This document shows, in pieces, positions 6,101 to 26,639 of a DNA stretch of 64,000 nucleotides. Within the stretch, counting starts at the first letter, position 1. The number at the start of each line of letters is the position of its first letter. The translations under genes were made by a program, and so were the position numbers. This DNA is from Catajapyx aquilonaris (taxonomy: Eukaryota): positions 1 to 64,000 of the forward strand of contig JYFJ02001120.1 of assembly GCA_000934665.2 (NCBI GenBank). The letters are read 5' to 3'. A model generated the notes under the pieces. The model was not told the DNA's origin. It worked only from the letters and a program-made list of their open reading frames with translations, and made no database searches.

Positions 6101-6116
6101 TCCCAGGGTTACTGAG
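3111..6116 (+). CDS. Three putative 5' coding exons (about 350 aa, no recognised domain) splicing in frame into the RhoGAP WW exon
   Basis: ATG at 3111. Exons 3111-3365 (phase 0, gtgagc), 4012-4325 (ccacag acceptor, phase 2, gtaagt) and 5636-6116 (ccgcag acceptor, phase 0, gtac) join without stops to 6299. All are GC-rich open frames. The full model is 2622 nt, 873 aa. Confidence 0.6.
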
Positions 6117-6298
6117 GTACAACTGCCAGTTGTGGTAGAAAACAAAGTTTTTTCCCGCGACCTAATTACGCGGTGGATAATAATTTCACACTTGAGTGAG
6201 CGGCAGGGTGCTTGGGAGAGAGATGAATGGTTCAATTTTGGGGGCTCTCAATAGGCTCATTTGAACTGGTGCCAATGGGGTTTGCTTCTTCTTTTCAG

Positions 6299-9233
6299 TG
6301 GTTCACTTCTCAAGATGGTGAGGGGCGGTTGTATTTCTTCGAGGAGAACAGCAACGAGTCGTCCTGGACGCTGCCAGAAGTATGCATCACCCCAAGCGAT
6401 GTGAGTTGAACCGGTTTGTGGAAGGTGGCACATTTGTTGATTTCTGTATGATTGCAGAATGTGGCGGCCTCGCCTGGGACATCCAGATCAGAAGACTCCA
6501 CGATGTCAAAGTCACTCACCAATGACTCCCTCCAGGAGATGGACTCAGGAATCCTTCCAGCTCCAGAGCACGGAAGCAGCTCCACCAACTCCAGCAAGCA
6601 AAATACACCTCCCAGGAATCTGGTGCTTGGGAGTGGGTCCAGGTTCATGAAGACTCGCTCCATGGTGGTTCTGGATTCAAGGTGAGAACGTTTGGAGTGT
6701 GTGTATCTTTTTGCAGCCATTTGCAGATGACACTTCTGTTTGTTTCTTCTAGGGGTGAGCTTTCCATAGGGGACAAAGACATCCTCAAGTCTTCCAGCAT
6801 ACCCAGAAATCAGATGTACCTTGAGAAACTGGTGAGTGTTTTGCTTATTTTGTTGGCGTTTTTGAAGTGGGAGAATATGGTTGAGTTTTTCGTATGTCCG
6901 GAAATCAGGTGTTAGTTTGTAATCTGTCCTTTTGTTGTCATGCAGCGTCCAGCCAAGGAAGGGCAAATGAACCGCACTAAGATAACAGAGCATGGAAAGA
7001 AGCTTCGCAAGAATTGGTCATCTTCGTATGTGGTGCTGACTGAACAGCACCTTGTTTTGTTCAAGGATGCCAAAGCATATCAGGCTTCGGTAAGCACTCA
7101 TTGCTTCAACTGTAACCTTGGGATGTGTTTGACCAGTCCTTTCTTTACCACCAGCAAAATATGGGATCCCATGCCAAACCAGAGTTAGTGGTGGACCTGA
7201 ATGGTGCCATGGTGGAATGGACGCAGGACAAATCGAGTCGCAAGAATGTGTTCCAGGTGAATACCCTGACTGATCTGCAAATGCTGTTCCAAGTGGAGGA
7301 ATCAGACATGGCCCACGAATGGTTTCAAGCTATTGCAGCTGCCGTTGGGAAACTGGTAAGGAGTGAAAGCGTCCCACAAGGAAATGCAGAGTCCTGTGCA
7401 GTGCATTCAACTTGGGTGTTGTTTTGTTGTAATCATAAAGCAATGTTGAATTTCTATTAACCGTCACATGATTTGATGAATAACAAGGATGTGAGTAATT
7501 CAGGTGACATTTGCCTGACCTTTCCCTCTGAGAAAGTTGAATGCACTGGACTCACACATGCATGAAGAGTGTTTCTACACACGGAGCAGAGTATATGAAG
7601 TATGTACCACATGTTTCAGAATTTATCTATCATCCGTATTAGCATAAATAATTTGGCTAGCAAATTCATGCATTCTACAATTATTGTAGAATGCATGAAT
7701 TTGCTAGCCAAATTTTCTGGAATTCAATACATGCCATGTATTAATTTAATGGAATTTCCTGCAGCCAAATGGGCGATACAACCGCAGGAGGCCCGGAAGT
7801 GAATCTCCCCAACTGATGGAGCTGTCCACCCCAGAAGAAGGTCGCAAGTTCACTCGACTGGGTCGCTCCAAGTCCACAAAAGGTAAGTCCTCGTAATGAG
7901 AGTAAACAAGGGGTGCCACATAGTCACCTCTCTTTGACCCCACCCACCCCACTCGCACAGTGAAAGCATTGGGAAGTACAGAGGATTTGAGCATCACCTC
8001 GGACAACAAGACCAAGATCAGGGCCAGGCTGAAGAAGTTTTTCTACAAGCGCCCCACAGTTGAGTCACTGGTCAAGAAGGGGATCTACAAAGGTAGCATT
8101 AGCAAGGTGTTCTGTAGTTGGCGAGGGATAGCCAAAGGGGAGGTGTTGAGGAGATATGAAATGCGATGGAAGTAATACTGTGGATTCAAATTGCCTCATT
8201 TTCATGTTGAAAGTAAATCACCTTCCATTGGCTATCTCCTGCAGTATGTTAGGGGTTAGATGCTTTGTAGTGTAGGAGGGACGTAGATTGCACCTCGGCA
8301 GTTTGCGCAAGACACCTGTGTTCCAGAGAGCATGTGCACCCTTAGCCCCCCTACCAATCAGTGATGACTCAGAGTGAACATGTAGCCGGTGGTGTTTCAG
8401 GTTGTGTGACCATACAAAGAAAAACCTGAACCCTTTCTTTTCCAGATGAGCCGGTGTTTGGTTGCTACCTGCACAAGCTGTGTACTCTGGAGAAGACAAC
8501 AGTGCCGCATTTTGTCCAACAGTGCATAGCAGTGATAGAGCAGAAGAAGGAGAACATGAAGGCAGACGGACTGTATCGAGCATCTGGAAACCTCTCCCAG
8601 GTGCAGAAGATCCGCCTGCAGGTGGACCAGGGGAATATGTCTGGACTTGAAATGGAGGAGGATGTCCATGTTCTCACTGGATCGCTTAAGCTTTTCTTTC
8701 GGGAGCTCAGGGAGCCGCTCATACCATTCTCCCTCTTTGAAAAGGCGCTCAAAGCCAGTGGTAAGGCTAGCAGCCAGATATTTTCTTCACACAAATAGTA
8801 CAAGTACTTTCTTCAAGTGTTGTTGAAGCCAGGTAGTGGATTATTGCCAGATTAATTCTATTTTGTGTTACAGGCAACCAGAACCACAAAGATAAGGTGC
8901 ACAAGTTTCGCGAGATTGTATCAGCTTTGCCAAAGCCCAATCACGACACCCTTCGGTACCTCCTAGAGCATCTCTTGAGGTATGTTACATTCATCCACTT
9001 GTGACTTGACGAGTTGGCCAGCCATACATTCTGTGACCTATCATTGTTCACTTTAATGCAGAGTGGAGAAGTGCAAAGAGTGGAACCGCATGCACATCCC
9101 AAACCTGGCCATAGTGTTTGGTCCGACATTGATGTGGCCCGAGCATGAATCAGCCAACCTGGCCCTGGACATGATGCAGCAGAACCTGGTCATCGAATCC
9201 CTGCTGCAAGACTTTGATTCCATTTTCAGGTGA
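6299..9233 (+). CDS. ARHGAP12-like: Rho GTPase-activating protein, ARHGAP9/12/15/27 family (WW-PH-RhoGAP), core exons
   Basis: Phase-consistent GT-AG exons 6299-6379 (WW: WFTSQDGEGRLYFFEENSNESSWTLPE), 6458-6681, 6753-6831, 6946-7089 and 7155-7355 (PH: KEGQMNRTKITEHGKKLRKNW...DKSSRKNVFQ), 7765-7882, 7961-8092 (KTKIRARLKKFFYKRPTVESLVKKGIYK), 8446-8760, 8874-8979, 9062-9233 (RhoGAP: VFGC...DGLYRASGN with arginine finger, LKLFFRELREPLIP, NRMHIPNLAIVFGPTL). Stop TGA at 9231-9233. Confidence 0.93.
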
Positions 9234-10657
9234 TTTCCCAACCTCAAGCACACGTAATTCGCATCAGAGACTGTGATAACATTGAACCGAAAACCCACCC
9301 AAATCCATCAAAAAAACAGAGGAAAGATCGGTCCATCTTTTGAAAAGCTTCTAATATTTCCCTTACCCCTCCCCGAAGACAATACTGGTCCAAAAGCTGT
9401 TACCAATTATTCTTTGGTGCCAAATGAGTTGAACCAACATGCTCAATATGATAAAAAGCACCAAAATGAACACAAAAGAGAATCTAGCATGTGTTTAAAA
9501 AAGATAACGTAGTGTAAAACGTCTGTTCCTGTTTTATCAAACGCTAGTTCAGAGCCTAATTATATAATGTTGCCCCCTACGTACCATTGTTATGGAACAT
9601 GTCTACTCAGATACTGTATCGTTGTAAGGAGGTTGTTGAAACAATTATTTCGATGAGACTGTGATGCAGAGATTTGTCATTCTATGCACAAGCCTAGTGA
9701 AGAGTGAGCGTACTGGTTCTACGTAACCAGGCAGTTTACAAAAGACTAAAGATATATAATGTACGAACGATTCGAAAGACTTGAGAACGCCTGGGAAAAT
9801 AAAAAGAAGTTATCTACGACTGGCTACGAGAGGTCATACTATTGTCGGATGAAGTCCTATTTTCTTGCTAAAAATATATATCAGAGAAGCTCATCCTATT
9901 AGTAGACTCATCTCTCATGCCCGCACTTCCATATTACCTTTGCATATTTCACAAGACATAATTTTTAACTAGTCGTTTCCCCTGTTTTTCCGGAATGGTG
10001 TGTGTTGTAACGAGCGCCATTGCTGGCTATTTGTTATTCCTCCAGACATATACATTATTTTTTGGCCTAGTTGTGTATGCCTGTAGCTATGCTCCCAGTT
10101 TGTTGACTGCATTAATGCGTGACTGACAAAACAGACTTAGTACATGCCTTAATGTCGTTGCCTTTCAGAACAAAATGATAAAAACAAAGAAAAAAAAAGT
10201 ATATGGAATGTTTTACCTTTAAACCTGCAATAGGTTCTCCCCGTGTTATGTACAGTTATCTCATCCCTCAAATAAAAAGGACAATATGGTGTGTACAGTG
10301 GACAGCAAATTATACGTCCCAATTTATGAGCAAGAAAAGCACGGTTTAGTTCGCTCGGCTGTTGACATTCTTACTCATGAAGTTAGAAAACAAATGGTGC
10401 AATTTTTGCTCATAAATTGAGGCCTGCATTTTGCTACTGAACTATAGAGCACGAGACGGGAAGTGTTTTGAAAAAAAAAAAGAACAAGTCACATTCCAAC
10501 CCCGTTCTGTAATATACGATTATATAAATCTATATATATGTAACATACGGAAAATATAAATGATGGAGTACAAATTTCGCTGTGTTTTGTTCTTCCACTG
10601 GGTGAAGGAAAATTTTGAGGGAAGTGGGGGGGGGCTCCTGCTGCCATTGATTTTTCT

Positions 10658-13600
10658 CTAGGCAGAGGACGAGAGTTGCTGCTGTTGGCTGGATGACGGG
10701 GGCATGTCCATCTCCATGTCCATGGTGAAGTCCTCTGGTGGAGGCACATGCTCCACGGCGGCGGAAAAGGACATACGATCCATCCTGGGAGGCTTGTATT
10801 GCTCCACGCGTTCCAGCAGGGTTTGAGGGTAGTTGGGAGAGTAGTACCTGGGGTTCGGGAGTGAGGAAAGGAAAGGAAAGGAAGATTGGTTACAGGCTGA
10901 TCAAATTTTTTGGGCCGAGAACTTCGCAATTGAGCATCAAGTGTGTGTCAACTTATTTCGTCAGTAATGTGTACATAGATACTAACGTCATGATGAATTA
11001 AAGAAAATAGGAATGGTACTGACTTGACCACCTCCTCTGGAAAGCACATGTTCACAGCCTTGATCTGTTCCATCAGCTCTGTTCCAGGTTCGGCCTTAAT
11101 CTCCTGCACCTTCCGCAGGGCTCCTGACTCCACAAACGACCTTCTGGCTATCGGGTCATAGGGCAGCATCTGAAAAGACAAGGAAAATTCATTTTATATA
11201 AGAGAAAGAACCTTTTTTATTTTTTAAATTAATTAATTAATTGATATTTATTTTACCACGTGATAGGCCTACATAGGCCATGTTGGGGGGTGGTACACCA
11301 CCATCACTTTTCTCGTATACTAATTTTCTTTTCCTCCGGTGCAAGGGGACAGGATAGGGATAAAAAAGAATATGCCGTATATGAAACAGCCTGCAAAATG
11401 TATACAGTACGTAGTATTCACTGATGGACCTTGCCAAATTCTGCCTCCCAAATTAAATGCAAAACAAACGTAGCAACTAACGAAGCATAATTAGCTAGGC
11501 TGTTAACGTCACGCAAGTCATAAATCAAAACCTAAGGTCAATGCGACAGTGGCAAGCACGCAATTTGTAGGCCTATAATTTTTTTCCCCGTTTATAATCG
11601 GCCCGACTTATGTTTCTGAGAACTACAATTGGGGCCGTTCGTGGATCCTTCGCTTTTTAATTAGTCGCCAAAATTAGCTCCAGTGTGGGGGCCTTCGACA
11701 CCACCACCATGTATTTTTTTGTGGGTCAAGCAACGGCCGTCAACTGTCCAACATGCGTCACTGCCCGTCAAATAAAAGTGTCCTCATCCACTTAGCATCC
11801 AATAAACCCCAGTCGCGATGACACCTGCATTGTCCCTGCAAGCCCCGGACCGCAACAAAGCAAACACAATATTTGCATGACGTATCAATAGACCCACAGA
11901 ATGGAACACACTTGCGCAAAAGGTCGAGGAATGGGTGGGGAGAATGTTATTATGAATTATGATTATTATTTACTCCAGCAACCACAGTTTCAAGCGAAGC
12001 AACATAGCGGCCCCATGGTGTAATGGTTAGCACTCTGGACTTTGAATCCAGCGATCCCAGTTCAAATCTGGGTGGGACCATTTTTTTGTTTTTGTTTTGT
12101 GCACTGTTCAGTGCAACCCTCATTAAAAAATAAAACAAGTAAACCGGTCACATGTACAGAGAGGACATCATGGGCACAATACGCCCGGTTAAGGTAAGTT
12201 ATAAAAGTACTTCGGGCACGACGAAGCTGCCTGGTAATTGCCAGTTTACAGAACAAGGTAAGAGTGTTCCCAGCACGAAAGCTTAGTGCACATGTGATAA
12301 TAATGCGCTGCAATATCGCACAGCCACCAGGAAAAGTCAAACCACATTTGCATACGTAACAATGTGCCCGTTAGCTATGGTTCAACTTGTCTCATAAGCA
12401 TTGCGATATCAATATCTGCGTTAACTTCTGGCCCACCCTGTATAATCGTCTTTCCCTTTTTTTGTTTTTTGTTTTAAAAAGAGAAACGATCCTGAAAATC
12501 AGCCAATGATAATGACAATTTTTTTTTCTTTATGTTTGAAAAAAAAGCTGTGTCAGAAGTGGGATTCGAACCCACGCCTGGAGAACCAGACTGCGACCTG
12601 AACGCAGCGCCTTGGACCGCTCGGCCATCCTGACTTCATGCGAACTACCGCAATCCCTTTCGCTCTATGTACCCTTTCTAATTTGGTTCGGGGGCCCAAA
12701 AACTTGGCACCAGCACCGGATTCCACGCGCAAAACCGGCCTTGCTGTTACCTCAAGCCCCTACGCCAAACTCCTAATGACGTCACTTCAGAAGAGACGGG
12801 GTACAAAAAAAAATAACAGAGATGTACTGTACTGAAGGGTATGAAGGATTGAAGGGGCGTTGTAATTGATAGTTACAATCCCCACGGGCCACTGCAAACT
12901 GCATGCGTTACTTCCATGAACAAGTGGGCGCACAAGTTCGATAATTACAGCATTTTCCACTGATGGTTAATTAGTCCGCTTGCCACATTTGGTCAACATT
13001 TGGTCTAATTAACACGCAATTATTAATATTATTGAAGAATTTAATCGAAGTAATGCGATAATAAAAAGTAATGATGAATCAATAGAGCAATATCCTGTTG
13101 GGGGTAAGTAAAGAACATCCCAAGAATTCCATGAAATTCAGGGCTTGTATTTCGTAGAATCGTAGATGGTCTTTGCAAGGCTTGTGATTGGTTTCTGTCT
13201 TGGACCAGGTTTCCCGGTGTCATTTACCCTGCTGGACGTCTGCTGGTATAGAAACCGAGCAAGCAGAATCAGCACGTGCGACGGGTCTTAATGATCATCA
13301 ACCTACACCTCCCGTTATCAATATATTGTCGTGACGAAAGCACCAAAAAGACGCGTGAGTGGCGTGCATGATCGGCCTGATAAAATATTCCATTCTGGTG
13401 GCCCTGTGGGATCTACGCGGGGTCTCACCTGCGTCATAACCCCAAATGTATTATTAAGGGTCCGGACGTGTCATCGTTGCCTAACTCGAAATAAACAAGA
13501 TGTGTCAATATACTCGTGGCGTAGAAACTCCCCAAATATTTGACGTATGCTGCATAATGGCGCGTGGCATGGTTTGGAAAAGTGAGAAAATGTTGCTGAC

Positions 13601-14836
13601 GATGGTAATAGTTACTGACATCACAATGGCTTGCAACAAAATGTTCATCCCAGATCCAGACATATAGTGTGGTTATTGTGGTTGATTAGACGAAGGACCG
13701 TATAATAACCAACACAATGAATCCCTTGAAACCGTGGGTGTCGATCAGGAGCCATGCCTTCTCCCATCGGGCACAGTACCGAACTTCGCATGTCTGCCGA
13801 CCCTTATTATTAGTGAACAGACTCGTCGTCAGCAGCCAGAGAAATCCCACTCATTTTCCGCAATCGTCCCACGCAGGCTCTGCAGAGGATTTGCCTCTGG
13901 AGTGTTTGCTTCTGCTCAGATAATGAAATTTTGTACAAGTCCCACACAGTATATACAAGTATATTCCGTGCGTTCCCTCAGAATGGAAACTCTCTTGGCA
14001 GCAGACGGTTTCGAATTGATTGACTGATTGAATCAACAGCGGACGTATTAGGACGTGGGCACGTTCCTTCCACGTGCCCACCATTCATCCCACTTGGCAT
14101 TCGATCGCACTAGGGTGCCTCATATTTGAAGCAAAAAGTTGGAGAAAAATGAGAAAAAAAACTGATAGTTACGTAATCATTTTTCAAGCATACCGGTACC
14201 TCCTGGGTGGCAAAAAAAGAGAGGGTATAGTCATTTCCCGTCACAAGCCGGCGTATTCAACCCCCTGTGTAATGGGTTTCTTCCCGGATGAAGCAGTAGT
14301 CTCTGGCCTTAATTACAACTCCGGACACTTGATTTGCTCTATTGTGTACCGTACGTAATTTCTGAAGAAAAAAAAAAGTGTATAAGGGCGACGACCTTGT
14401 GGAGAAGTCGTATGGTGGACACGTGTTCGAACAACGTGAGTGGGCACACATCAAATTGGTGATCACTGATTAGTCAACAATGTTATGGCTCGTGTGACAC
14501 AAGGAGCGGAGAGAGAGAGAGAGAGAGAGAGAGAAATAATAATAATAAAATCGATGGAATAATGTGACTGACGTCAATGACGCTTCCAGGTTTAGCTTCG
14601 ATAATAACGTTTATTAAGTGACGTGGAGTTGGCACCGGCTTCACTATATCGTGTCTATGCCACATTTCGGTACGCCAACAGCCAGGGCGGTTTATTTTTA
14701 GGTCAATTGTGATTAATTGATTTAGGTCCATTATTAAAGGGAAAAAAGTACTGGCAGGGATGTGCCGATACGCACTTAATGACGTTGGTCGCAAAGACTG
14801 TTCAACAAAAACTTGCCCACATGTGCACGTCGCGAC

Positions 14837-14931
<95 letters not shown>

Positions 14932-17900
14932 CACGAAGGCTATGAAGCGTATACAAAATGATAGGGAAAGAGTGACTCAGCTATCATGTGTGTCACTCCA
15001 TATCGATGGAGATAATAAGTGCCACGTTCCCAGTAGCATCGAATTTTATCCCAGTTGCTATCGAGAAGTCAGGATGGCCGAGCGGTCCAAGGCGCTGCGT
15101 TCAGGTCGCAGTCCGGTTCTCCGGGCGTGGGTTCGAATCCCACTTCTGACAATACGTTTTTTTAAAAATCCTTCTATCTCCGGAAAATCGCACAAAAATT
15201 AGTCAGCGCAACTGATTAAATGAAGAGTATGCACTATCTTTATTGCCTTGTAAAATAATTCCAAACCATGCATAGTAACTGCATGGCAACAAACTGGCGA
15301 GAACGGTAATTTTAATGCCGGTATCCCAAAATAATCGACCTGAATACATTTAGTCGACTCCAGAGTGGTCAACCTTTCTGACACCTAGATGCCGCATATT
15401 GCATCATTAATATCAGCGAAAATGGCCAAGTACTCCTCCTGTCCAGATAACCTCCAAAATGAGGCTAAGGGGTCACCAGCGAAACCTTGCGTGATTTTTA
15501 TCGTGGGTGGTATGACCCCTTCAGAAAAACCCCTTTTATGGAACCATATCGCCCTCAAGTTTTTTATATTCCTCCTTAGCGAATCACGCGAAGTGGTGCT
15601 GGTGCACAAGGAGTTCCAAACACTGCCTCTTTGATGTCCACAACAAAAGCAGTTCTGAACCACCTTATATAAGCGTACAAATTGGCTATATATAGACACC
15701 CGCAACAAATCCTTCTTTTTTCTCGTATTTTTTTAGTCCTCTGTTACGAAACCTTCTAAGGCCTTCTTACACAGTGTAACACTGTAGACTCAGATTCAGC
15801 TCACCAGGAAGAACCGCACAAAAAAAACAAAAAAAAATGATGGGAGCAGCCAGCATATACAGATATGTCATGACGTTGATAAAACCTATAAATAGACACA
15901 AGGTAAATAGCTTGATAACACTTGAGTGGATGGGTGTGGGCACATACGTCAAAGCAACAAACATCCCTCATGGCTTCCAGTTCGTTTCTCTCCTGACCTT
16001 CACCCTCCTCTTCATTAGCGATGTCCCCTTTGATTCACGCCCAGAATAGAGACGCCCTAATGGAGTCTTCCGCTATATGCACACATCATGTTCCGTTCCA
16101 AGAAAATATGGCATAATCAACAATGTGCTTGTCAACAATGGGCACATTTGTACAGTTTCTCCTACTATAGACAACTTTGTCTGATAAACGACGTGCGTTC
16201 ATTCAAGCCAATAAAACCTGTTCACTAAACCTGCTCCCACGTCGATAAAGTTTATTTTGAAACCCAATACGCCTTTCATACCCAGTTTATTTTTTCTCTA
16301 GAAATTTTCCCCAAACAATCCCAGCGCATTAAATATAGACCGAAAATATGGAGAGAGATAAGATATAGTCCTCTCCATCGATCTCCAAAGCAGCCCACGG
16401 ACAATTTACCCCCCTCCCCCTATACACTTGAAAGGAAAATGAAGACGCCAGTTTGCGCACATACTCTAGGCAGGACAATGGGGCCAACCTGGCAGAAAAA
16501 GCGACGTGAGATGGTGTACCTGCACATCCCAAGCCCCTTTATAAAAATGCATCATAATATACTTTGCGTCAACGGACACTTATTGCGAGTCCCGGCAGCT
16601 CCCATTGTTCTATAGTTTTATTATTAGCAGTAAGCAGAAGAGACAGGCAGCGAAATAAAGTGACGTGTACGGCGGAAGTTCGGTGAGAGAAAACCATGAC
16701 GCAGGTTCGGCTGCACCATGTGAGTGTGACCAAGCCTTGATCGTTGGTTGAGAAAGGTCACGGAAAACTTTCCACTTTTTCCACATATGGACGACCGATC
16801 CGGTTTTTTTTTTCTTCGTTTGACTCACTGGTGCAATAAACGACCAAACACTGACGTTACACCATAATATTACTCTCAGATAACATCAGACAGGTGCCTT
16901 AAAATAAGTCGAATAACCCCCCAAAAATAGCCCAAACTGGGGCATAAAAAGGCCCGCTATTATGAACGATAACTATCTCAATTCAAACATTCAAACATGC
17001 AGTCCTAATATATTAAAGTGGCGTACTGCATACTGAGCTGATAAGATTGAGCGTGGGATGTGCTTCCTAATCAACCAGCACACGTCATCATACACCGTAC
17101 ACAACATGTGGCCCAAAATTCAAGCGTCATACAGTATACCTGCACACATGAATATGATTCACCCTTAGTACATACGCTGACATTCCAACACCATGCATGT
17201 GCGTCCACGTGACTTATTTTTTGGGTCGATCCCTGAGGCTAAATTATCCGTCTCGCCAATAGTCAACGTGGGTTGTCGGTACCGCGCAGCGCCATTCGCC
17301 GGCTGGCAAAGGCAAGGGCCTCTGACGTCAATGGCCCAAAGGCTCTCAGGGTTCCTGCCCACAAAATGCTCCCGTGGGGGCTCCCATCTGGTTAGATCGG
17401 TCCGACAACGTGTCCTGGACAGAAGTGCTTGTTTCGCTCTTGGGTCACCACGGACGAGCTGGTGGTCTTAGGTACCCGGGTGCAACTTAGGGACAGGAGG
17501 GAAGACACGTACCGGCTGACCGGAAAGGTTGGTATTGATATCAATTGAAATCGATGTGCATGTGTTTCACTGGTGACAACTTCTAGTCCACGCTGGGTCC
17601 TCCTGCGGCTACCGACTGGCACCCTGCCATGATGCCGGACACACTGATGGCGTCCAAATCAGAGCCAGCTACCACCTCAGCATCCACATCAGACCAACCG
17701 TCCGCATCCGGAACATCCCCGCAGTACCTGGAGGACACGTACGATCTGCTGTTCCAGCGGTACGTCAACGGCCTGAGTGAAGTGATCAAGGGCAAGGAGC
17801 AGCAGGCACCTGAAGGTTCCAACAACAACAGAGGGTACTGCAACAACAACCAGTACCACCACCACCACAACGGGTTCCGTCTGGAGGCGGACCAGGCGCT

Positions 17901-20900
17901 GAGGAAGAACAAGGTGCTCAAGATGGACACTTCTGGCGATCCGATGGAGCACGGCGCCCTGCTGGCCCAGCTGCAAGGGGTCACCTTAAAGGACGCGGTC
18001 AGCAACCCGATTATCACCTTCAGCCACGTGGAAGATTCGGCCACCGGACCCGAACCTGAAGATCTGCCCGAAGAAGTCCAGTCGCCCGAAGTGGAGTTCG
18101 CCGAGGTGGATCTGGCCGAGGGCAGCGGAAGAACTAGTCCGATGCTAGAGGTGCCAAAGATGGACCTCAGCATGGAGTGCAAGAGGCCGCCGTTATAGAC
18201 AGTGGCAAAGTGACATTTCTGGACTTTTGTGACCAATGTTAACCTCATGTTATAACCAGGCTCAGTGGCGTCATATGTACTACAATAATGTGTGCTTCGG
18301 AAAAAAAAAAAAAAAAATCTAATTCTTTCCTCCTTGCTTGACACTTTTATGAGGCGCGGTGAGGCTCTCGTGTATAATGAAACCGCCAGCACTGGTTTTT
18401 TGTAGATATATTACTTTGTACCTCGCAAGTGTTACCGCGAGGACGTCACTGTATTTACATATTCTTCTTATATACCATAAAATGGTATGACTATGTATCT
18501 CCCTCCCCCCCTGAACCGCCGCTTTTTTCGACTATTAAAAAACATTCCGGCAAAAATATCAAGGCGTTTTTTGTGTGGAATTGAGGGGAAAGGTCACGGT
18601 CATCCCAGCCAGCCTGCGCACCATCATTAATTCACAGCCCTCCGTTACAGTATAGTCTTTGACACTGTTCCACCCGACTTGCTACAGGAAGAAAAGTCAG
18701 GCCTTAAAGGTGAGAGCCTGCCTTTTGAACAGCCGACGGTGGGGGGTTCCAATTGTGTGTGACAAGAGCTGACTGCGTCATCCCTTCGCCCTGTCCTGCG
18801 TCACAAGTGTCACGACTGATTAATTCCATGCACTGCTCTTAACCAGCGTGGTTATGTGCATTGTCGCACGTCCTCGACCGATCCGGCCCCGATATAGATG
18901 AGAGTGGCCATGGATTTCTGTCATTGGTATTTGGGTCGTCCCCATTGGGGTCCAGCAAATGACGTCAACGGGTCATCCCCAATGGTCACAAAATTTTGGC
19001 AGCCCAGCCAGATAAAACATCAGCTGCATCGTGTTACCTGCCATCCTATGTAATATATTACAAGCTTGTCACCTTTTGACGCAAGCTTTCTTCCTGGACG
19101 AAATGTGCCAACACCTCAACCGGAACCCCCGAAAATAGAGTACAGGCATGCACGACATGAAGGGCGCGGCACCCTTAAATTTTTCGCCGTACACATGTCA
19201 TATGCAGGTGGTACTTTTGAGCACGGATTTATGTTCGAAGCAAATTTGGCTCGATCGCGTGTTAGGCTTTTTTTTCTTGCTGTGTGGCAGATACAAATCT
19301 GTAAAAAGAACCCACACCTTGTGACGTCAACGTAGTTTTAGGTTCATTGATGAGGGGCATCCCGCGGTGGGTGCGGTTACCCTGGAAACTTTTCATTACT
19401 CCCATCTTGGTTGGTCGATGCGATATACCAAAAATAGAGCGGCGTATAGAGCCAGGAAGTGGCATAATGTATTATCCATCCTATAAGAAGTTGTGATTGC
19501 TGCTTCCGACTTATTGGGTTCTTCAAAAATTGTTGCTGAGGTGATCAATCTACCGCCCACAGGCCCACTTGAACTTGAGATTTGGTCAGTGAACGGGTCA
19601 GTGAACCATAAGAAGTATAATGGCCTATAGACATCAGTCAATACCCTCCATAAGTTGAACTCAAATCCAATTTAAAAGCTGGTCATAGCAACCTTGTCTG
19701 AAGATCAGTCAACAAGACCATGCATTAAAGACCGGTGCAAGGGACCCACATTGTACATCCACCGCGACGGACCTGGTACGTCGCTGCGAAATCACGTCCC
19801 ATTATGCAAATTTATTATCGGGTACACGTACGTGGTTAGGTAACACCACGCAAATGCCCGGAAGAAAACAAAAAAAAATGCTGTTTGACCACCAGTCAGC
19901 TGTGACGTTTCTCAAGTGCACAGTATATATTTAGCCACCTTTTTTTCCTCCGTCTATAGTTTATAATAGGCGGAAGTGACGTCCAAAAGAAGGTAACCAT
20001 GGGATACGGGTTACCGTGTCACAGCTGATTTGGATATATTTTCCGCCTGTTTGTAGGTCGGAACCGGTCGGAATCTCCATGCAAATTAGATCTAGCGATA
20101 ATGTTGGCAGTGGTCATGGAACTGTCTACATGCGGTATGTACAGGACGTATACAATAGGCAAGTGCCCATTAAATTAAGCGACGGTACATAAAAATATGC
20201 TGAGCATTAAAATCGGCACCTTTGACGTTACTCGCGACCTTGCAACCTCCGACTGCAGAAGGGTGGCGTGACATATACAAGTGTCCTTTTCCACGGCCTC
20301 AGTTGTAAATACCTGCAGGTTTTTGGAGAGCTCTATTATTTTCTTCCCTGCACCACAAAGTGACGTCAAACACCGAGGTTTCGGATGGCTTGTCACGGCC
20401 TCAGATGATCCGTATAACCCGCCTTAAACCGCGTTCATTACGCCAAATTAATGCGCACTTCTACGATGTAATAGTGGATTTTCGGTGGTGTTATAGGCTA
20501 TGAACCAAGTGGTGCTTGGGGTTCTCGAATGAAGAATCGGTCTTATTAACCCATTAACAGGTCTACGCTCCACCAGCATCAAGTGGACAGAACAGTGACC
20601 TAGCATGACCTTTAAAAAAAATGACACGCTCGTCGCATTATATTGGGTCGTAAACTACAAACGAAGACATTTGGACAAACCAATCGGCTGCTACAAAAAA
20701 AAAAAAAAAAATGGTCCTTTTGATCTCGTTATTGCAGACTTAATGGGCTCCCTGCTTCCTCCGTTGTCATGTAAAACACCGGTACCTGCCGCTTTTGTGC
20801 AGGGTAATGCAATATCCCCCTGGCAAAAGGTGCTCCCTTAGTAACCTACGCACTAATTACAATTTCAAACCACTCATTCATTATAGTTGCACACACACAC

Positions 20901-23900
20901 ACACACACTCGACCCCCCCGACCGCGAAGGTCATTTCCGGAGTCTCATGTGACTCGTCGCGTCATCGGCTGCTGGGCAGGCGTGCTTGTTAGTCACGCTA
21001 CTTCGGATCCAAGTCACTTAGGGTAATAGGCTGTAATCACTTTTAGGCCTAATGTTCGAAGTGAATGGCTGCATTATTTTTCAGGCTGCCGTACGGCCAC
21101 GTTTCCATGGCGACTTTTGTGTGCGAGGTGTGGGTGTCAGCCGGTACACGTAGGCGCCAAGGGTATTACTTTGTATAAAATTCGCCTCCTGATACTGTTG
21201 TTTATTCAACCGAAAAGACAGGTAGTGATTATATAGGCCAGTGGGACGCCGATCCCAAATGAATACTGAGCAACCTTGACAGTCTGAACCACAATGGTTT
21301 GAGTTCGACTCGATCATCGATCAGCTGACTGTTTCCGGGATTTCACTCTTAATCCGATTGCGTGTACCCATGCAGTCCCAATCTCGGTCCACTCAGCCAA
21401 TCACATAATATTATTATGCTTTTTTTTTTTGCTTACATAACCCAGCCAGCCTGGACAAGTAGTACTGATAGAAAGTTCTACACACCTACACACCTTGAAA
21501 GGATCTGATATTTCTAGAAAGACCATGAATATTTGTAGGTCACATGTAGTAGCGAGGTACAATTTGTAAATAATATTTCGCCGACTTCCTGCAGCAGAGA
21601 GAGTTGTTTCTCTTCCCAATCACATCAACAGTGTCGACCCTCGCCTTCTATTTACGGAGGCGTTTTAAGTGAAAAGCGATATCTCCGGGAGTCGAAGGAA
21701 AAACAGCTCCCGTGCATGCGAGCGCTATTTCTATTCCCAAATAGAAATCCGCGACTGGTATCCCCCCCCCCCCCTCCCCCATTAAAAAAAAAGGCCCGCC
21801 CACCCAAATCGATAGCATAAAAGGTAGTAAACGACAGGCGCTTACAAGTTAGTAGAGTACTCTAAAGCCTCGTAATTACAACAAGCACCTGCTTATTTAA
21901 CCCACCCTCGCTCACCCTCTGCTTTGACTATAGACAAAAGGGGTACAGTCTCGGGTACTGTATAACCTAACCAGCAACTTCCGATTGCAAAGCCATTGAC
22001 GTCAAGGCAGTGTCAGCCGCATTGGCAAACTCGCGCCATCTGCTGGCAGCGACGTTAGTTGGAGATCCATCTCTCGGTGCCGTTGGAATGACTTGGATGT
22101 TTTTTGTTTTTTTTTGAAAAATGAAAAATGAAAAATGAAAAATGAGAAATGAAACTCACCTTGACGTATTGGCGCAGCACGTGTCGGAGTATGTTGGGAG
22201 GGGCGTCTCTCAGCAGGGGGTCTAGGGAAGGTAGGTGGACGCACATCTGGAGGACCAGCTTCAGGGCGCTCTTGGCCTGCTTCTTCAGGTCGTCGGAGCC
22301 ACGAGGTGACAGGTACAGCTGCAAGTGGCAATTAGATCATGAGGACTATGAATTTCCACATTACAAAGACATTTCAGTAGGCTACTTATTTCTTTCAACG
22401 CAATACCATTGCTTATTATAACAATTACTGAAAAGGTATTGGAAGTGTTAAGTTGACCATCGGGGATAGGACCCCCGATAGGGCCGCATTTGAAAGCGAT
22501 AGAAACGCGAGCAGTCAGGATGGCCGAGCGGTCTAAGGCGCTGCGTTCAGGTCGCAGTCAGGTTCTCCGGGCGTGGGTTCGAATCCCACTTCTGACAAAC
22601 GTGTTTTTAAAAAGTGTTTCAAAATACGTGTCATTGTTTTGTGATGCAGTCATCCCATTATTATTCTTTGGACGTAACATTCCTATTATTGTACAGTACT
22701 TTTATTAGGGAAATAACTAACAGAAGGGTGGAGTCTCCTATTCTTGACACTGACCCAAACGTGTACAATACTTCCACTGCTAGTAGTATTTTGCATTCTT
22801 TTATTCAGATACCCTCGCACATACTGCACTCTTATGCACTATGTGATTCACATTTTAGGAGGACCACACTGGAGAAAGTCAACAAATTATTGGCATTCCG
22901 ATCGTCCGTTCCTTTCCATTTGTCGTAACACCTACGCTGCTTACGGTTAATGCTAATGAATTGCTGGTGGGAGTATAATGAACCAAAAGCCGGTTATTTG
23001 TCTTCAAATTAATGGGTGCACTTGCACTTTATGCAGATAACCTAGGCCTATATCATATTAGGCCTTCAAATTAATGAACGAATGCAGATAACCTATTCTC
23101 CATTTTAAAACTTGCATCACCCTAATACAGTATATGGCCTGTAATCAGTAAGTCTTGGAAGACTTCCAATTATAATGTGCATTACATTTGCATAACTGCC
23201 CAAATGTAAGCCACAACCATTTAACTTCTTCTATCAGTGGTCCTATGGTGTAATGGTTAGTAGGTACTCTGGACTCCGAATCCAGCGATCCCACAGTACA
23301 AATCTGGGTGGCCCTTTTCTGATTTCTTTTTTCAAATCAGAAAAGAAAAATACTGTACGTATTTTAAATACTGTTCGAGTACGTTGCTGTCTTTACGAAA
23401 CAACCGGCTAACCGCCTGGAGACTATAACCAGTAATGCAGTAAACTCTCGATTATCCAGACTAAATGGGACCAGAAGGCGTGTATCACAAATTTTCCTGA
23501 TATTGCTAAAGCCACGAAAACTCAGGATTATGAAGTACCTGCAAGAGCGCCGGAAAGACTCCAGTGAGCGCCACCTCCCTGGCGTGCTCGGCCGAGTGCC
23601 TCCCGACCTGTCCGATGGCCCACGCGGTGGCTGACAGCACGTGGTCCTCCTTCTCCTCCTGCAGAGCTTGGGCCAGCTGCTTCCCTCCCTGGGAGGCCAG
23701 CAGGGCCATGGCCAACGGGTCAGAGTGGGCTCCGATGTAACCTAGGGCCAGGATCCCCGGCAACCTAACGGAGCTCTGATTCTGGGCGACAAAGTGCACC
23801 AGCATGCCCAGCCCACCTGCGTTGACCACCAGCTGGGCCAGCTCAGGGCTGTGCTTGACAATCTCCCTGACCAGAATGGCCGCGTTGCGACGGACGTACT

Positions 23901-26639
23901 CGTCAGGGAAGTCCAGCATGTGGAGGGTCTCGGGGAAGACGGAGGCCTCCACCACCAGCTCGGACAGGGGCAGGGAATGCTTGGCCAGGTTGTACAGGGC
24001 GGACAGTCCCTGCCGTTTCAGACGGGGCTCGCTGCTGGAGAGGGTGCGGGCCAGGTGGGGAATGGCCCCTGCGTCCACCACCGTCTGGGCCAACTCCAGA
24101 CCGTGCTTTGATATGTCCGCCAGGGCCGATGCTGCCACCTGTCGACATACCATTATCCAATTAATCAACACCGCATTAAATTTTTAAATGAACTAAATAC
24201 GGAAGCAGCATTGTAATAAACGGGGGACAGTGCATCAAGACAAATTCATCCTGAGTTGTATGCAGCCGCACCCTTGTATTACCGGTTGTGTATCATCTAG
24301 GCGGAAGGAACACCAAGCTGTCTGGTCCGCAATTTTGACATTACTCTGCTTATCAGTAGCGAACAAGGTCATAAAAATTGTACTGCTGATAATAATAGGT
24401 TGAACTATACCTGCTTGACGCAAGTCTCCGGCTCTTGCAGGCACAACACCAGCAAGGGCACAGCTCCGGCCTCGATCACCGCGTAGGCCAAGGAGAGGTC
24501 ATGCCTGGCCACGTACCCAAGGGACCACGACGCCCCTTCCTTGACCCCAGGGTCGAAGTCCTCCAGGCAGGCCACCATGGACTCGACCCCGCCAGCGTCC
24601 ACCACCGCCTTGGCCAGGGAAGGGCTGTGCTTGGCCACGTTCCTCAGGGCGAACAGAGCCGACTTCTTGTAGAACCGGTTCTGCGTCTCCATGGCGAAGA
24701 TCAGCCGGCTGAGGATGTCCTGCTGGACGATGGCCTCCGCGATGGACATGCAGTGCGAGGCCAGGCGACCCAGGGCCATGGCCGCCGTCTGCTGGATGGT
24801 CACGTTCACATCGGACAGGAGTGGACGCAGCAGGGCCAGGGCCTCGCACTTGTGCAGCGTGTCCACATTCTGGGCGCGAGCTGAGTACTCGGACACCGAG
24901 TGTACGAACTGTGTGCGGGCCTTCTGGTACTGCACGAACACTGCAGGCATCGTACAACATGCGCAAAATTAGAGGAGATGGACATCGTGTAATTGAAAAT
25001 GCAGGCACGCCCTCCCTTTACTGTATACCCTACTTTTTGTGCATTATTACTGTCATAACTCCGGGACTAAAATCATTACTCCGGCCAGGTACCGGAATGT
25101 CCTGTGCTGGTGCGACAAGGTTGCTGCATATTATTAATTTCGCGTTAATTAGAGCCCGCCTTGTTTATTAACAGGTGCATTCCAGACTCTACAATCCATC
25201 CCTTTGGTCCAGATGATGAGATATATTCAAACTTGTCTAAGGGGTTAGCCACATGATATTCACGAGTTTATTTCCCAAATTATGACAGACATTTCTAGCG
25301 AGATGTATTACATTCTCCGAGAAATAGCTATTCTGAACTTACTATTAGCCTATATCATATTTCGAAGATGAAAGTGAAACTCGAGTGGAATGCGCCTATG
25401 GAATTTGATGTTCTAAAATGCACTCAGAACAACATGTATGGCATTCCATTGGTCACATGCTCAGTAACATGTCCAAGTGTTTAGACCCCAGCGATTAGTG
25501 ATGTATTTGCGTAAGAGCATACATATATTTGGAGAAGGAATTGTGACCCATACAAGATTCAAAATGTTCAGTTTCAATTCTGGGTCATGCGTGGCTCGCG
25601 AGAAAATAATAGATATGTTTGACGAATTACCATTATAATTGGAGCCAAATTCTTGGACATGTGACTGATGAAATGCCACACATGTTTTTCTAAATGTATT
25701 TTCGGGAAAATCAAATTCCATAGGCGCATTCTACTCGCGTTTCTCTTTCATTTGATGTATGTTGATTGGGTTTCGACCACTTCCAATAACCGAAAAAAAA
25801 AAATCTAAAAATTGCCCAATTTTCAAAATTTCGCGATTTTTTCCCTCCCCACGGCAATTTGCAATTTGGCTGAAACTTGATATGGAGTGTTACGGCATAG
25901 GTGTGTACAGCTGTGATTATTTTCAGAAAAATTCGAGATGGTTTAGCAACATTTTGGCCCACTTTATTGGGAAAAAACTGCACCCTGTTGACTGCCCCGA
26001 GGTCAAAAACAAATCAAAGACAAAACGAATGCCCATTATGAGTTACTTGTGACCTAAGGAACACGAATTTATGACGATGAATTTCCATGGACAAATAAAT
26101 ATCTTGTTGATAAGTGTTATCTAAGTACACTAACCCGAATTACAGACCTATTGGGTTTCCGATCAGATTATTAATTTTAAGTCCTTTCAACACGCTTCTC
26201 TCATAAGATTAAGTAGCGGGCTGAACTAATCAATATGTTTTACTCCACATAATTACGGGAGAAACTCCGTCCAAAAACATGGATTCTGGATTATCCTCCG
26301 CAGATTTACTATGTAGTCATTACCAGGAAGAAATTGACTTTCGAGTAGCTAGCTATTGCTGAATGATAAAACACATTAGTATAAACAATGTAAGTCCGTA
26401 CTGATGACAACCTTCCTCTCTTAGCTTGTAATAATAATTAAATGATAGCATAATTATGGACATAGGTACTGCTGGCAACTGGAATGCACCAATCATCTCT
26501 CAGTAACAACCACTCTTCCGACTCAGGATCTTCCAATTTCAAAATCAGTACCCTTCCTAAATGCATTACCAATATTATTGTAAAATAATACAAGGCATGG
26601 CAAAGCGATCTCACCTTGTGTGATCTGACGCAGGCTCAT
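10658..26639 (-). CDS. SPAG6: Sperm-associated antigen 6 (PF16), armadillo-repeat axonemal central-pair protein, about 549 aa
   Basis: Exons 26639-26615 (MSLRQITQ), 24940-24411 (VFVQYQKARTQFV...QNRFYKK...EDFDPGVKE), 24138-23539 (AASALADISKH...EDHVLSATAWAIGQVGRH), 22318-22160 (DAPPNILRHV), 11169-11024 (ALRKVQEIKAEPG), 10847-10658 (YYSPNYPQTLLERVEQY..., stop TAG). All junctions are GT-AG and phase-consistent, total 1650 nt. Matches recalled vertebrate SPAG6 along its length. Confidence 0.95.
12009..12080 (+). tRNA. tRNA-Gln(TTG)
   Basis: 72-nt GGCCCCATGGTGTAATGGTTAGCACTCTGGACTTTGAATCCAGCGATCCCAGTTCAAATCTGGGTGGGACCA with intact A and B boxes and a T7 Pol III terminator at 12081-12087. Confidence 0.95.
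12551..12634 (-). tRNA. tRNA-Leu(CAG)
   Basis: 84-nt GTCAGGATGGCCGAGCGGTCCAAGGCGCTGCGTTCAGGTCGCAG...GTTCGAATCCCACTTCTGACA on -, with a long variable arm and an oligo-T terminator downstream (A-run 12539-12546 on +). Confidence 0.96.
14837..14926. repeat. (AAT)30 microsatellite
   Basis: Perfect AAT array read directly. A (GA)n tract also lies at about 14509-14534. Confidence 0.98.
15068..15151 (+). tRNA. tRNA-Leu(CAG)
   Basis: 84-nt canonical tRNA-Leu with anticodon CAG, followed by T7 at 15157-15163. Confidence 0.96.
17629..18198 (+). CDS. Nested antisense gene in SPAG6 intron; 189-aa low-complexity, acidic protein of unknown family
   Basis: 570-nt ORF with strong GC3 codon bias against AT-richer intron flanks, gccATG context and a candidate acceptor ttctag at 17581-17586. 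The frame is open from 17587, so an upstream coding exon is possible. Confidence 0.7.
   Translation: MMPDTLMASKSEPATTSASTSDQPSASGTSPQYLEDTYDLLFQRYVNGLSEVIKGKEQQAPEGSNNNRGYCNNNQYHHHHNGFRLEADQALRKNKVLKMDTSGDPMEHGALLAQLQGVTLKDAVSNPIITFSHVEDSATGPEPEDLPEEVQSPEVEFAEVDLAEGSGRTSPMLEVPKMDLSMECKRPPL
22514..22597 (+). tRNA. tRNA-Leu(CAG)
   Basis: 84-nt tRNA-Leu with anticodon CAG, one mismatch in the variable-arm stem, and T5 at 22604-22608. Lies in SPAG6 intron 22319-23538. Confidence 0.92.
23239..23314 (+). pseudogene. tRNA-Gln-derived pseudogene
   Basis: GGTCCTATGGTGTAATGGTTAG-TAGG-TACTCTGGACTCCGAATCCAGCGATCCCACAGTACAAATCTGGGTGG. Gln body with a 4-nt insertion after the D arm, anticodon read as CCG, a 2-nt T-stem insertion, B-box GTTC changed to GTAC and a damaged acceptor 3' strand. 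Confidence 0.85.

What the first reader, a model, noticed from the sequence alone, without database searches (positions are those of the whole stretch)
12777..22004. Seven perfect CRE palindromes packed around the nested gene: possible CREB-calcineurin feedback circuit
Seen: TGACGTCA at 12777, 14569, 17323, 18960, 19322, 20361 and 21997, all within one intron of about 11 kb, plus many TGACG half-sites and a TATA-like tttataaaaa near 16538. Under uniform base composition about 0.2 copies are expected in 11 kb, and I spotted only five elsewhere in the window (2902, 42014, 44344, 57416, 57443). Known: CRE clusters mark cAMP/Ca2+-inducible genes, and calcineurin activates the CREB coactivator CRTC. 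Inference: the nested gene is a stimulus-induced gene whose product could feed back on calcineurin.
Basis: partly seen in the sequence, partly recalled or inferred. Interest (0 to 1): 0.72.

Follow-up and report, generated by a model that had tools for sequence, protein, structure and literature searches.

The report
CRE cluster around uncharacterised nested gene
Seven perfect CREB-type DNA sites crowd one intron around a small spliced gene that termites and cockroaches also carry; they likely make that gene signal-inducible, though three probably belong to nearby tRNA genes and the proposed feedback on calcineurin is untested.

Summary
All seven TGACGTCA sites are at the stated places, in a 10,990-nt intron of a SPAG6 gene. 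The sites are not repeat-derived. Three lie upstream of tRNA-Leu(CAG) genes, which often carry a CRE in this genome (3 of 5 others). Four remain in 3 kb around a spliced nested gene. The genome's CREB (6 sites), Hr38-like (3) and jun (3) genes have similar clusters; RCAN does not. The nested 189-aa protein is no orphan: 33 relatives were found, the named ones in termites and cockroaches, and all keep loose PxIxIT and LxVP matches. The stricter LxVP pattern fails in 32 of 34. Termite-type orthologs lie beside a decayed SPAG6 exon and keep one or two CREs, not seven. Best reading: a CREB/ATF target gene (0.55). Calcineurin feedback is possible (about 0.17); binding and induction are untested. 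A word search of the scan found no such cluster on other DNA.

The parts
12777..12784 (.). CRE palindrome 1; 143 nt upstream of the minus-strand tRNA-Leu(CAG), likely a tRNA-gene element
14569..14576 (.). CRE palindrome 2; 492 nt upstream of tRNA-Leu(CAG) at 15068, half-sites beside it; may serve the tRNA gene, the nested gene or both
17323..17330 (.). CRE palindrome 3; starts 62 nt before the first base of the transcript contig, the candidate proximal promoter site
18960..18967 (.). CRE palindrome 4; downstream of the nested gene, not near a tRNA gene
19322..19329 (.). CRE palindrome 5; downstream of the nested gene, not near a tRNA gene
20361..20368 (.). CRE palindrome 6; downstream of the nested gene, not near a tRNA gene
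21997..22004 (.). CRE palindrome 7; 510 nt upstream of tRNA-Leu(CAG) at 22514, with a SPAG6 exon in between
11170..22159 (-). Host intron (GT..AG, 10,990 nt) of a SPAG6/PF16-like gene; CpG observed/expected about 0.9
17385..17527 (+). Nested gene, first exon as far as the contig shows it (true start unknown); no open frame in phase with the ORF
17528..17586 (+). 59-nt GT..AG intron of the nested gene, skipped in one contig of run X1
17629..18198 (+). Nested coding sequence, 189 aa, predicted mostly disordered with one helix (31-58); PIITFS at residues 127-132, LEVP at 175-178, C-terminal RPPL
12550..12634 (-). tRNA-Leu(CAG) inside the intron
15068..15151 (+). tRNA-Leu(CAG) inside the intron
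22514..22597 (+). tRNA-Leu(CAG) in the next SPAG6 intron
15532..15541 (.). CArG-like box; one in the intron, which is ordinary (46 of 100 control stretches have one or more)
15886..15895 (.). MEF2-like CTATAAATAG, one of six MEF2-like matches in the intron; 9 of 100 control stretches have six or more
16538..16547 (+).
19972..19982 (+). GGAAGTGACGT, an overlapping ETS and CRE half-site (name recalled); 0 in the 100 control stretches
22160..22330 (-). SPAG6 exon before the large intron (5' edge approximate); a decayed copy lies beside the termite-type orthologs

Best explanation
The intron holds a real cluster of seven CRE palindromes around a spliced nested gene, and it likely works as a CREB/ATF-bound control region that switches that gene on after cAMP or calcium signals. 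Two things overlap in it. The four inner sites (17323, 18960, 19322, 20361) and many half-sites would form a promoter-proximal site and downstream enhancers of the nested gene. The three outer sites each lie upstream of a tRNA-Leu(CAG) gene and probably serve those genes, 12777 most clearly, though they may be shared. The product is predicted to be a mostly disordered docking protein with four conserved short blocks. Calcineurin is its most likely named partner, as a substrate or scaffold at least as plausibly as an inhibitor. Shown: sites, excess, splicing, family, motif conservation. Inferred: CREB binding, induction, partner.
For: 7 full sites, 28 TGACGT hexamers and 42 half-sites in 12500-22499, against maxima of 5, 18 and 30 in 100 control stretches. 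Four sites within 3,046 nt were seen in 0 of 100 controls. Only the tRNA part of 12680-22150 has copies elsewhere in the genome. One contig covers two exons with a GT..AG intron removed and starts 62 nt after site 17323. Genes chosen beforehand as expected CREB targets show clusters: CREB 6 in 1.6 kb, Hr38-like 3 and jun 3 per 10 kb. Insect and crustacean egr-B promoters keep two CREs (PMC6140108, passages). Termite-type orthologs keep TGACGT 111 nt before the ATG in 5 of 5 loci, as a full palindrome in 3 of 5. Two loci have a second full site with half-sites 4 kb upstream (2 of 500 shuffles reach 2 full sites). They have no tRNA gene and only a decayed SPAG6 exon nearby. pKID-bearing CREB and CRTC are present.
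Against: No induction, binding or chromatin data. The control windows were on long contigs at fixed offsets, and the target window was drawn around the sites. With the tRNA-proximal DNA removed, 2 of 100 controls match or beat the 4 full sites of the 6.8-kb core, and the best control ties it for hexamers (18) and half-sites (26). The expected-target comparison is only suggestive: 3 of 11 stretches with 3 or more sites against 7 of 100, one-sided p 0.06; RCAN and a second jun-like gene are at background. The five termite-type loci are three distinct sequences about 90% alike, so keeping six bases says little, and they have 0-2 full sites, not seven. The transcript start is unknown, and run X1 is not on record as RNA.
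Confidence: 0.55

Rival explanations
1. One reading: CREB/CRTC induces the nested gene, and its product binds both docking surfaces of calcineurin and so damps CRTC activation. This extends the best explanation and is counted inside it.
For: The loose patterns P[^PG][ILVF][^PG][ILVF][^PG] and Lx[VLI]P (10.1101/632547, passages) are both met in 34 of 34 family members. They form two of only four conserved blocks in proteins 24-29% alike overall. The region is predicted disordered. Calcineurin A of this genome keeps NIRQF and FTWSLPF (their role as docking surfaces is partly recalled). Calcineurin activates CRTC, and CRTC-SIK1 feedback is known (PMC8886117, passages).
Against: Loose matches are common: 21,791 and 13,014 in human proteins, nearly all non-binders. 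The expanded pattern needs a polar residue at -2 (PMC5156906, passages); here it is proline, and only 2 of 34 members fit. Docking motifs also mark substrates. The genome has an ordinary RCAN, and its locus is not CRE-rich.
Confidence: 0.17
2. A constitutive ATF/CREB-rich open region: three sites belong to tRNA genes, the other four are the upper tail of a clumped background, and the nested gene is not notably inducible.
For: 9 of 56 tRNA genes have a full CRE within 600 nt upstream, against 0 of 50 downstream; for tRNA-Leu(CAG) it is 3 of 5. CREs raise Pol III transcription of 7SL and 4.5SH genes (PMC7279448, passages). The palindrome is 4.3 times over-represented genome-wide, and 4 of 100 controls have 4-5 sites.
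Against: Two of the three sites are about 500 nt from the tRNA gene, while most tRNA-linked sites lie at 49-150 nt. Allowing for the tRNAs still leaves p 0.004-0.012. Termite-type loci have CREs without tRNA genes. Seven of 14 flanks are A, against 13.5% genome-wide (noticed after the fact, p about 0.005 corrected).
Confidence: 0.3
3. The sites serve the host SPAG6 gene (a testis CRE programme) or an undetected transcript in 18.9-22 kb rather than the nested gene.
For: Four of seven sites lie 3' of the nested gene, on the side nearer the SPAG6 start. CCAAT boxes and an ETS/CRE overlap lie at 19.9-21.6 kb.
Against: In termite-type loci the SPAG6 exon carries stop codons while CREs remain 5' of the nested gene. 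No ORF of 100 aa or more lies in 18.5-22 kb.
Confidence: 0.1
4. The sites are chance, or pieces of an interspersed repeat.
For: Some control clusters have near-identical flanks, for example L086 and L062. The genome search skips very common words.
Against: The flanks of the seven differ. No part of 12680-22150 other than the tRNA matched elsewhere. TGACGTCA is the top non-simple 8-mer of the intron.
Confidence: 0.05

Closest known systems
ICER, from the intronic P2 promoter of CREM (PMC3941242, passages)
   Same: A cluster of CREs inside an intron drives an immediate-early product that feeds back on CREB signalling.
   Different: ICER has four sites in one promoter and is itself a bZIP repressor from the same gene. 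Here the sites spread over 9 kb on both sides of an unrelated, opposite-strand gene with no bZIP.
Insect and crustacean immediate-early genes egr-B/stripe and Hr38 (PMC6140108, PMC12572301, passages)
   Same: CREs near the promoter, with CArG- and MEF2-like sites nearby; this genome's Hr38-like and jun genes show similar clusters.
   Different: Those are transcription factors with measured induction. This gene has no known domain and no induction data.
RCAN/calcipressin feedback inhibitors of calcineurin (mechanism recalled; NFAT sites of the DSCR1 isoform 4 promoter mentioned in PMC6140108)
   Same: Would be a signal-induced protein with PxIxIT- and LxVP-type motifs and Ser-Pro sites.
   Different: No Calcipressin match, no RRM, no FLISPP motif. 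The genome has a separate true RCAN. The inducer here would be CREB, not NFAT.
SIK1 feedback on CRTC1 (PMC8886117, passage)
   Same: CRTC-induced gene that would shut CRTC down again.
   Different: SIK1 is a kinase acting on CRTC directly; the proposal here is blocking the phosphatase.
CRE/ATF sites upstream of Pol III type-2 genes, 7SL, EBER, 4.5SH (PMC7279448, passages)
   Same: TGACGTCA upstream of genes with internal A/B boxes; fits the three outer sites.
   Different: Those sites sit near -50; here they are at -143, -492 and -510.

Membership tests
CRE-cluster (CREB target / immediate-early) gene | Full CRE sites above genome background around the gene | tested here: met
   7 against 0.72 expected; maximum 5 in 100 controls
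CRE-cluster (CREB target / immediate-early) gene | CRE within a few hundred bases of the transcription start | tested here: inconclusive
   Site 17323 starts 62 nt before a contig's first base; contigs cannot show a start
CRE-cluster (CREB target / immediate-early) gene | TATA box downstream of the proximal CRE | tested here: inconclusive
   No TATA between 17323 and the contig start; the one at 16538 lies 785 nt upstream of that CRE
CRE-cluster (CREB target / immediate-early) gene | Sites conserved in orthologs | tested here: inconclusive
   Termite-type loci have 0-2 full sites and TGACGT at -111 in 5 of 5; no DNA alignment to the window
CRE-cluster (CREB target / immediate-early) gene | CREB/CRTC occupancy and rapid induction | not testable with these tools
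   Only one contig-level run was found
Calcineurin-docking protein | Loose PxIxIT pattern in a disordered region | tested here: met
   PIITFS; 34 of 34 members match; pLDDT under 50 there
Calcineurin-docking protein | Core Lx[VLI]P | tested here: met
   LEVP or LGVP in 34 of 34
Calcineurin-docking protein | Expanded LxVP with polar -2 and listed -1 residue | tested here: not met
   P-M-L-E-V-P here; 2 of 34 members fit
Calcineurin-docking protein | PSSM score and measured binding | not testable with these tools
   The matrix is in a preprint supplement that could not be seen; no whole calcineurin chain was available for a complex prediction
RCAN/calcipressin | Calcipressin domain with RRM and FLISPP motif | tested here: not met
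   No Pfam family for the window protein or five relatives; the true RCAN is on C567
Pol III gene upstream CRE | CRE upstream of a tRNA gene, as elsewhere in the genome | tested here: met
   3 of 3 tRNA-Leu(CAG) here; 3 of 5 elsewhere; 9 of 56 for all tRNA genes, 0 of 50 downstream
Repeat-derived motif cluster | Shared flanks or copies elsewhere | tested here: not met

The most novel reading that the evidence does not exclude
An undescribed insect-lineage family of CREB-induced, disordered calcineurin regulators unrelated to RCAN, kept beside the same SPAG6 exon even where SPAG6 has decayed, that closes a CREB-calcineurin-CRTC negative loop by filling both docking pockets.
Probability: 0.17. 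Interest if true: 0.75.

Novelty: new member of a known kind. Interest (0 to 1): 0.45.

Why it matters
CRE clusters at inducible genes are well known, so the cluster alone is not new. Its value is as a pointer. It marks an unnamed, conserved gene as a candidate activity-induced gene, with a site density at or above that of the genome's own CREB, Hr38-like and jun loci. Few such genes are known in insects and their relatives, and they are used as neural activity markers. If the product also docks on calcineurin, it would be a second feedback regulator family beside RCAN, induced through CREB. Both claims can be tested cheaply in a cockroach or termite.

Tried and rejected
Uniform or low-order Markov backgrounds (p about 1e-9) overstate the case and were replaced by genome counts. 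Pfam found nothing for the nested protein or five relatives. The Atlas gave no usable hit for the window protein; for P0019 it gave only leads under 0.9, among them a MACIR/UNC119_bdg cluster at 0.78, not followed. The model was low-confidence (mean pLDDT 49), so no fold search was run. Run search: no RNA holder listed, one run of unknown kind; it gave no cover outside the nested gene's exons, which is no evidence about other transcripts. No DNA similarity between the window intron and the termite-type loci. No remnant of the SPAG6 exons on the other side was found in up to 9.5 kb upstream of the termite-type genes, so nesting there is shown on one side only. No binding prediction with calcineurin was made, as its gene is split into short exons here. 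Identity with Drosophila CG14186 or honeybee GB47136 was a recalled guess; no paper gave a sequence link, so it is open. MEF2-like and CArG-like sites are within the control range. A PP1 RVxF reading was dropped because no basic residue lies close enough (pattern recalled). An Atg8-binding FxxV reading of F[NS]HV (33 of 34) and a MAPK docking reading of the LEVP block remain untested.
Full report
Observation. The seven palindromes are at the stated coordinates, and five more lie elsewhere in the window. They lie in a minus-strand GT..AG intron at 11170-22159. The host is SPAG6/PF16: it has Arm repeats, its named best hits are SPAG6 proteins, and a fish SPAG6 aligns with exons on both sides of the intron. 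A PH plus RhoGAP gene and a PIP5K-domain gene flank it. ARAGORN finds three tRNA genes in the intron and a fourth just outside; three of the four are tRNA-Leu(CAG).

Is it more than chance? Local shuffles give 0.15 expected sites, and none of 300 reached 7, but that null is too kind. The genome holds 18,828 sites in 285.6 Mb, 0.72 per intron length and 4.3 times the uniform rate. I fetched 100 stretches of 10 kb from long contigs at fixed offsets; their mean, 0.66, equals the genome rate. Counts were 0 in 61, 1 in 25, 2 in 7, 3 in 3, 4 in 2, 5 in 2 and 6 or more in 0 of 100. The target had 7 full sites, 28 TGACGT hexamers and 42 half-sites, against control maxima of 5, 18 and 30. A negative-binomial fit gives 0.002 for 7 or more, and 0.005 for the 35 CpG-rich controls. 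By that fit a genome of this size would hold some tens to a few hundred such stretches (inference). In the listed part of contigs C1-C4 no 11-kb window had more than 3. The target window was drawn around the sites, which flatters it.

Repeats. The flanks differ, and a genome search with 12680-22150 matched only the tRNA-Leu part, in all 22 matches. That search skips very common words.

tRNA genes. Of 61 distinct tRNA genes fetched, 56 had a full 600 nt upstream. Nine of 56 have a CRE there, against 0 of 50 downstream and 0.04 expected per gene. For tRNA-Leu(CAG) it is 3 of 5, against 6 of 51 for the others. Sites 12777, 14569 and 21997 lie 143, 492 and 510 nt upstream of the three tRNA-Leu(CAG) genes. 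CREs near -50 raise Pol III transcription in mammals (PMC7279448, passages). Allowing for this, the chance of 7 is 0.004-0.012. The core, 15152-21913, has 4 sites against 0.45 expected. Two of 100 controls reach 4 or more in that length, and 0 of 100 have 4 within 3,046 nt; the best control ties the core for hexamers and half-sites. Seven of the 14 flanking bases are A, against 13.5% genome-wide. I noticed this after the fact and cannot explain it.

The nested gene. One contig of run X1 lays on 17385-17527 and 17587-18292 and skips a 59-nt GT..AG intron on the plus strand. The run is not on record as RNA and contigs show no start or level, but the joint is that of a spliced transcript. Site 17323 starts 62 nt before the contig. 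The TATA-like string at 16538 is 847 nt before it, and 8 TATA-like matches occur in the intron. The ORF 17629-18198 is single-copy, has no Pfam family and is predicted disordered apart from one helix (low confidence). A 61% identical relative led by profile to two more, and then to 32 proteins; the named ones are uncharacterised proteins of Cryptotermes, Blattella and Diploptera. Four blocks are kept: YxxxTYxxLFxRxVxxLxxVI, P[IVL]I[TI]F[NS]HV, [ST]PxL[EG]VP and ExxRPP (19 sequences).

Conservation of the sites. Five metagenome loci carry termite-type orthologs; they are three distinct sequences about 90% alike. On the opposite strand, about 1.2-1.3 kb after the stop, four of the five show a stop-ridden match to the same SPAG6 exon that follows the gene here (E 3e-7 in L106, 0.003 in L102, 0.35 in L103 and L104; L105 ends before it). 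A fish SPAG6 also hits L106 there. So the position is old, though shown on one side only. Most termite families have aflagellate sperm (PMC6955734, passage), which may explain the decay (inference). These loci keep TGACGT 111 nt before the ATG in 5 of 5, as a full palindrome in 3 of 5. L103 and L104 have a second full site with three half-sites at -4074, and a half-site triplet lies near -1250. For the 5 kb upstream in L103, 2 of 500 shuffles reach 2 full sites and 9 of 500 reach 16 half-sites; over the longer 8.6 kb the half-site excess vanishes (83 of 300). There is no tRNA gene in them. CRE richness upstream is thus modestly shared, the seven-site layout is not, and no termite genome background was available.

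Calibration in the same genome. I chose five expected targets before counting and fetched 12 stretches. The names Hr38-like and jun are recalled from the translations; CREB rests on pKID plus bZIP on one contig. CREB has 6 full sites in 1.6 kb, 6-8 kb upstream of its pKID exon. Hr38-like has 3 and 1 in two stretches, and jun has 3 and 0. RCAN has 1, 1 and 1, and a second jun-like gene has 1. That is 3 of 11 full stretches with 3 or more, against 7 of 100 (one-sided p 0.06): suggestive only. Insect and crustacean egr-B promoters keep two CREs (PMC6140108, passages), and CrebB binds at Hr38 and sr starts in Drosophila (PMC12572301, passages).

Calcineurin. CRTC and calcineurin A with NIRQF and FTWSLPF are in the genome, and calcineurin activates CRTC (PMC8886117, passages). 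All 34 family members tested match both loose patterns of 10.1101/632547 (passages). That paper counts 21,791 and 13,014 such matches in human proteins, nearly all non-binders; its scoring matrices are in supplements I could not see and bear on this claim. The expanded LxVP pattern of PMC5156906 (passages) is met in 2 of 34, not in this protein; 10.1101/632547 notes that a structure-based pattern misses 16 of 25 validated LxVP peptides. Conservation shows that the two blocks bind something. Calcineurin is the best named candidate, perhaps 40% (my estimate), and inhibition rather than substrate or scaffold use is a further step.

Mechanism and odds. Most likely (0.55) CREB/ATF dimers bind the inner sites and, with CRTC or CBP, raise the nested transcript after cAMP or calcium, while the outer sites mainly serve tRNA-Leu genes. 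The full feedback loop is about 0.17 and lies within that. A constitutive ATF-rich region is 0.30, service of SPAG6 or another transcript 0.10, chance or repeat 0.05.

Literature and novelty. A search on the four termite and cockroach locus tags plus GB47136 returned one paper, on GB47136 only. A search on Spag6, intron, nested gene and insect listed 10 of 113 papers, none naming Spag6. PMC6514070 (passages) and the listing gave no link to a known insect activity gene. ICER is the nearest analogue of the cluster (PMC3941242, passages). The library lacks most subscription papers. Sequence and word look-ups of the scan found nothing else. Verdict: a real but not extreme CRE cluster, a new member of a known kind, pointing at an unstudied conserved gene; interest 0.45.

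Noticed in passing
L244 (G000:C283:66813-68394): Six perfect CREs in 1.6 kb, 6-8 kb upstream of the pKID exon of the CREB gene; a tighter cluster than the one under study, suggesting autoregulation or an ICER-like promoter.
   Followed up: partly
L107-L136, L157-L161, L165-L182: tRNA genes of this genome carry upstream CREs (9 of 56 upstream, 0 of 50 downstream), most often tRNA-Leu(CAG) (3 of 5, plus 3 of 3 in the window).
   Followed up: partly
L106:4186-4308, L102:4168-4317, L103/L104:12098-12220, minus strand: Decayed SPAG6 exon with stop codons beside the termite-type ortholog; fits loss of the sperm flagellum in most termite families.
   Followed up: partly
P0018, P0020-P0049 (long forms): Termite and cockroach members have an N-terminal extension of about 135 aa with an [RQ]RA[ST] motif in 19 of 24 long forms (PKA-like site, recalled); the window protein and P0001 lack it.
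   Followed up: no
L235 (G000:C3600:6428-6446): Two CRE palindromes 11 nt apart upstream of the Hr38-like gene, both followed by A like six of the seven sites here.
   Followed up: no
window 23236-23332: Degenerate tRNA-Gln-like copy with small insertions, not called by ARAGORN (families D6 and D19).
   Followed up: no
window 25368-25413 and 25706-25751: 46-nt inverted repeat, 91% complementary, 292 nt apart; looks like a small non-autonomous transposon upstream of SPAG6.
   Followed up: no
window 14838-14927: (AAT)n microsatellite of about 30 units between CRE 14569 and the tRNA-Leu gene.
   Followed up: no
window 5628-9230, 10600-24950, 30900-33930: Gene order ARHGAP-like (+), SPAG6 (-), PIP4K2-like (-); SPAG6 and PIP4K2A are also neighbours in human (recalled).
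   Followed up: no
L137-L144, L147: Several divergent PP1-like phosphatase genes, two with the whole catalytic domain in one frame and three clustered on C426.
   Followed up: no
window 57415 and 57442: Two CRE palindromes 27 nt apart, outside the finding.
   Followed up: no
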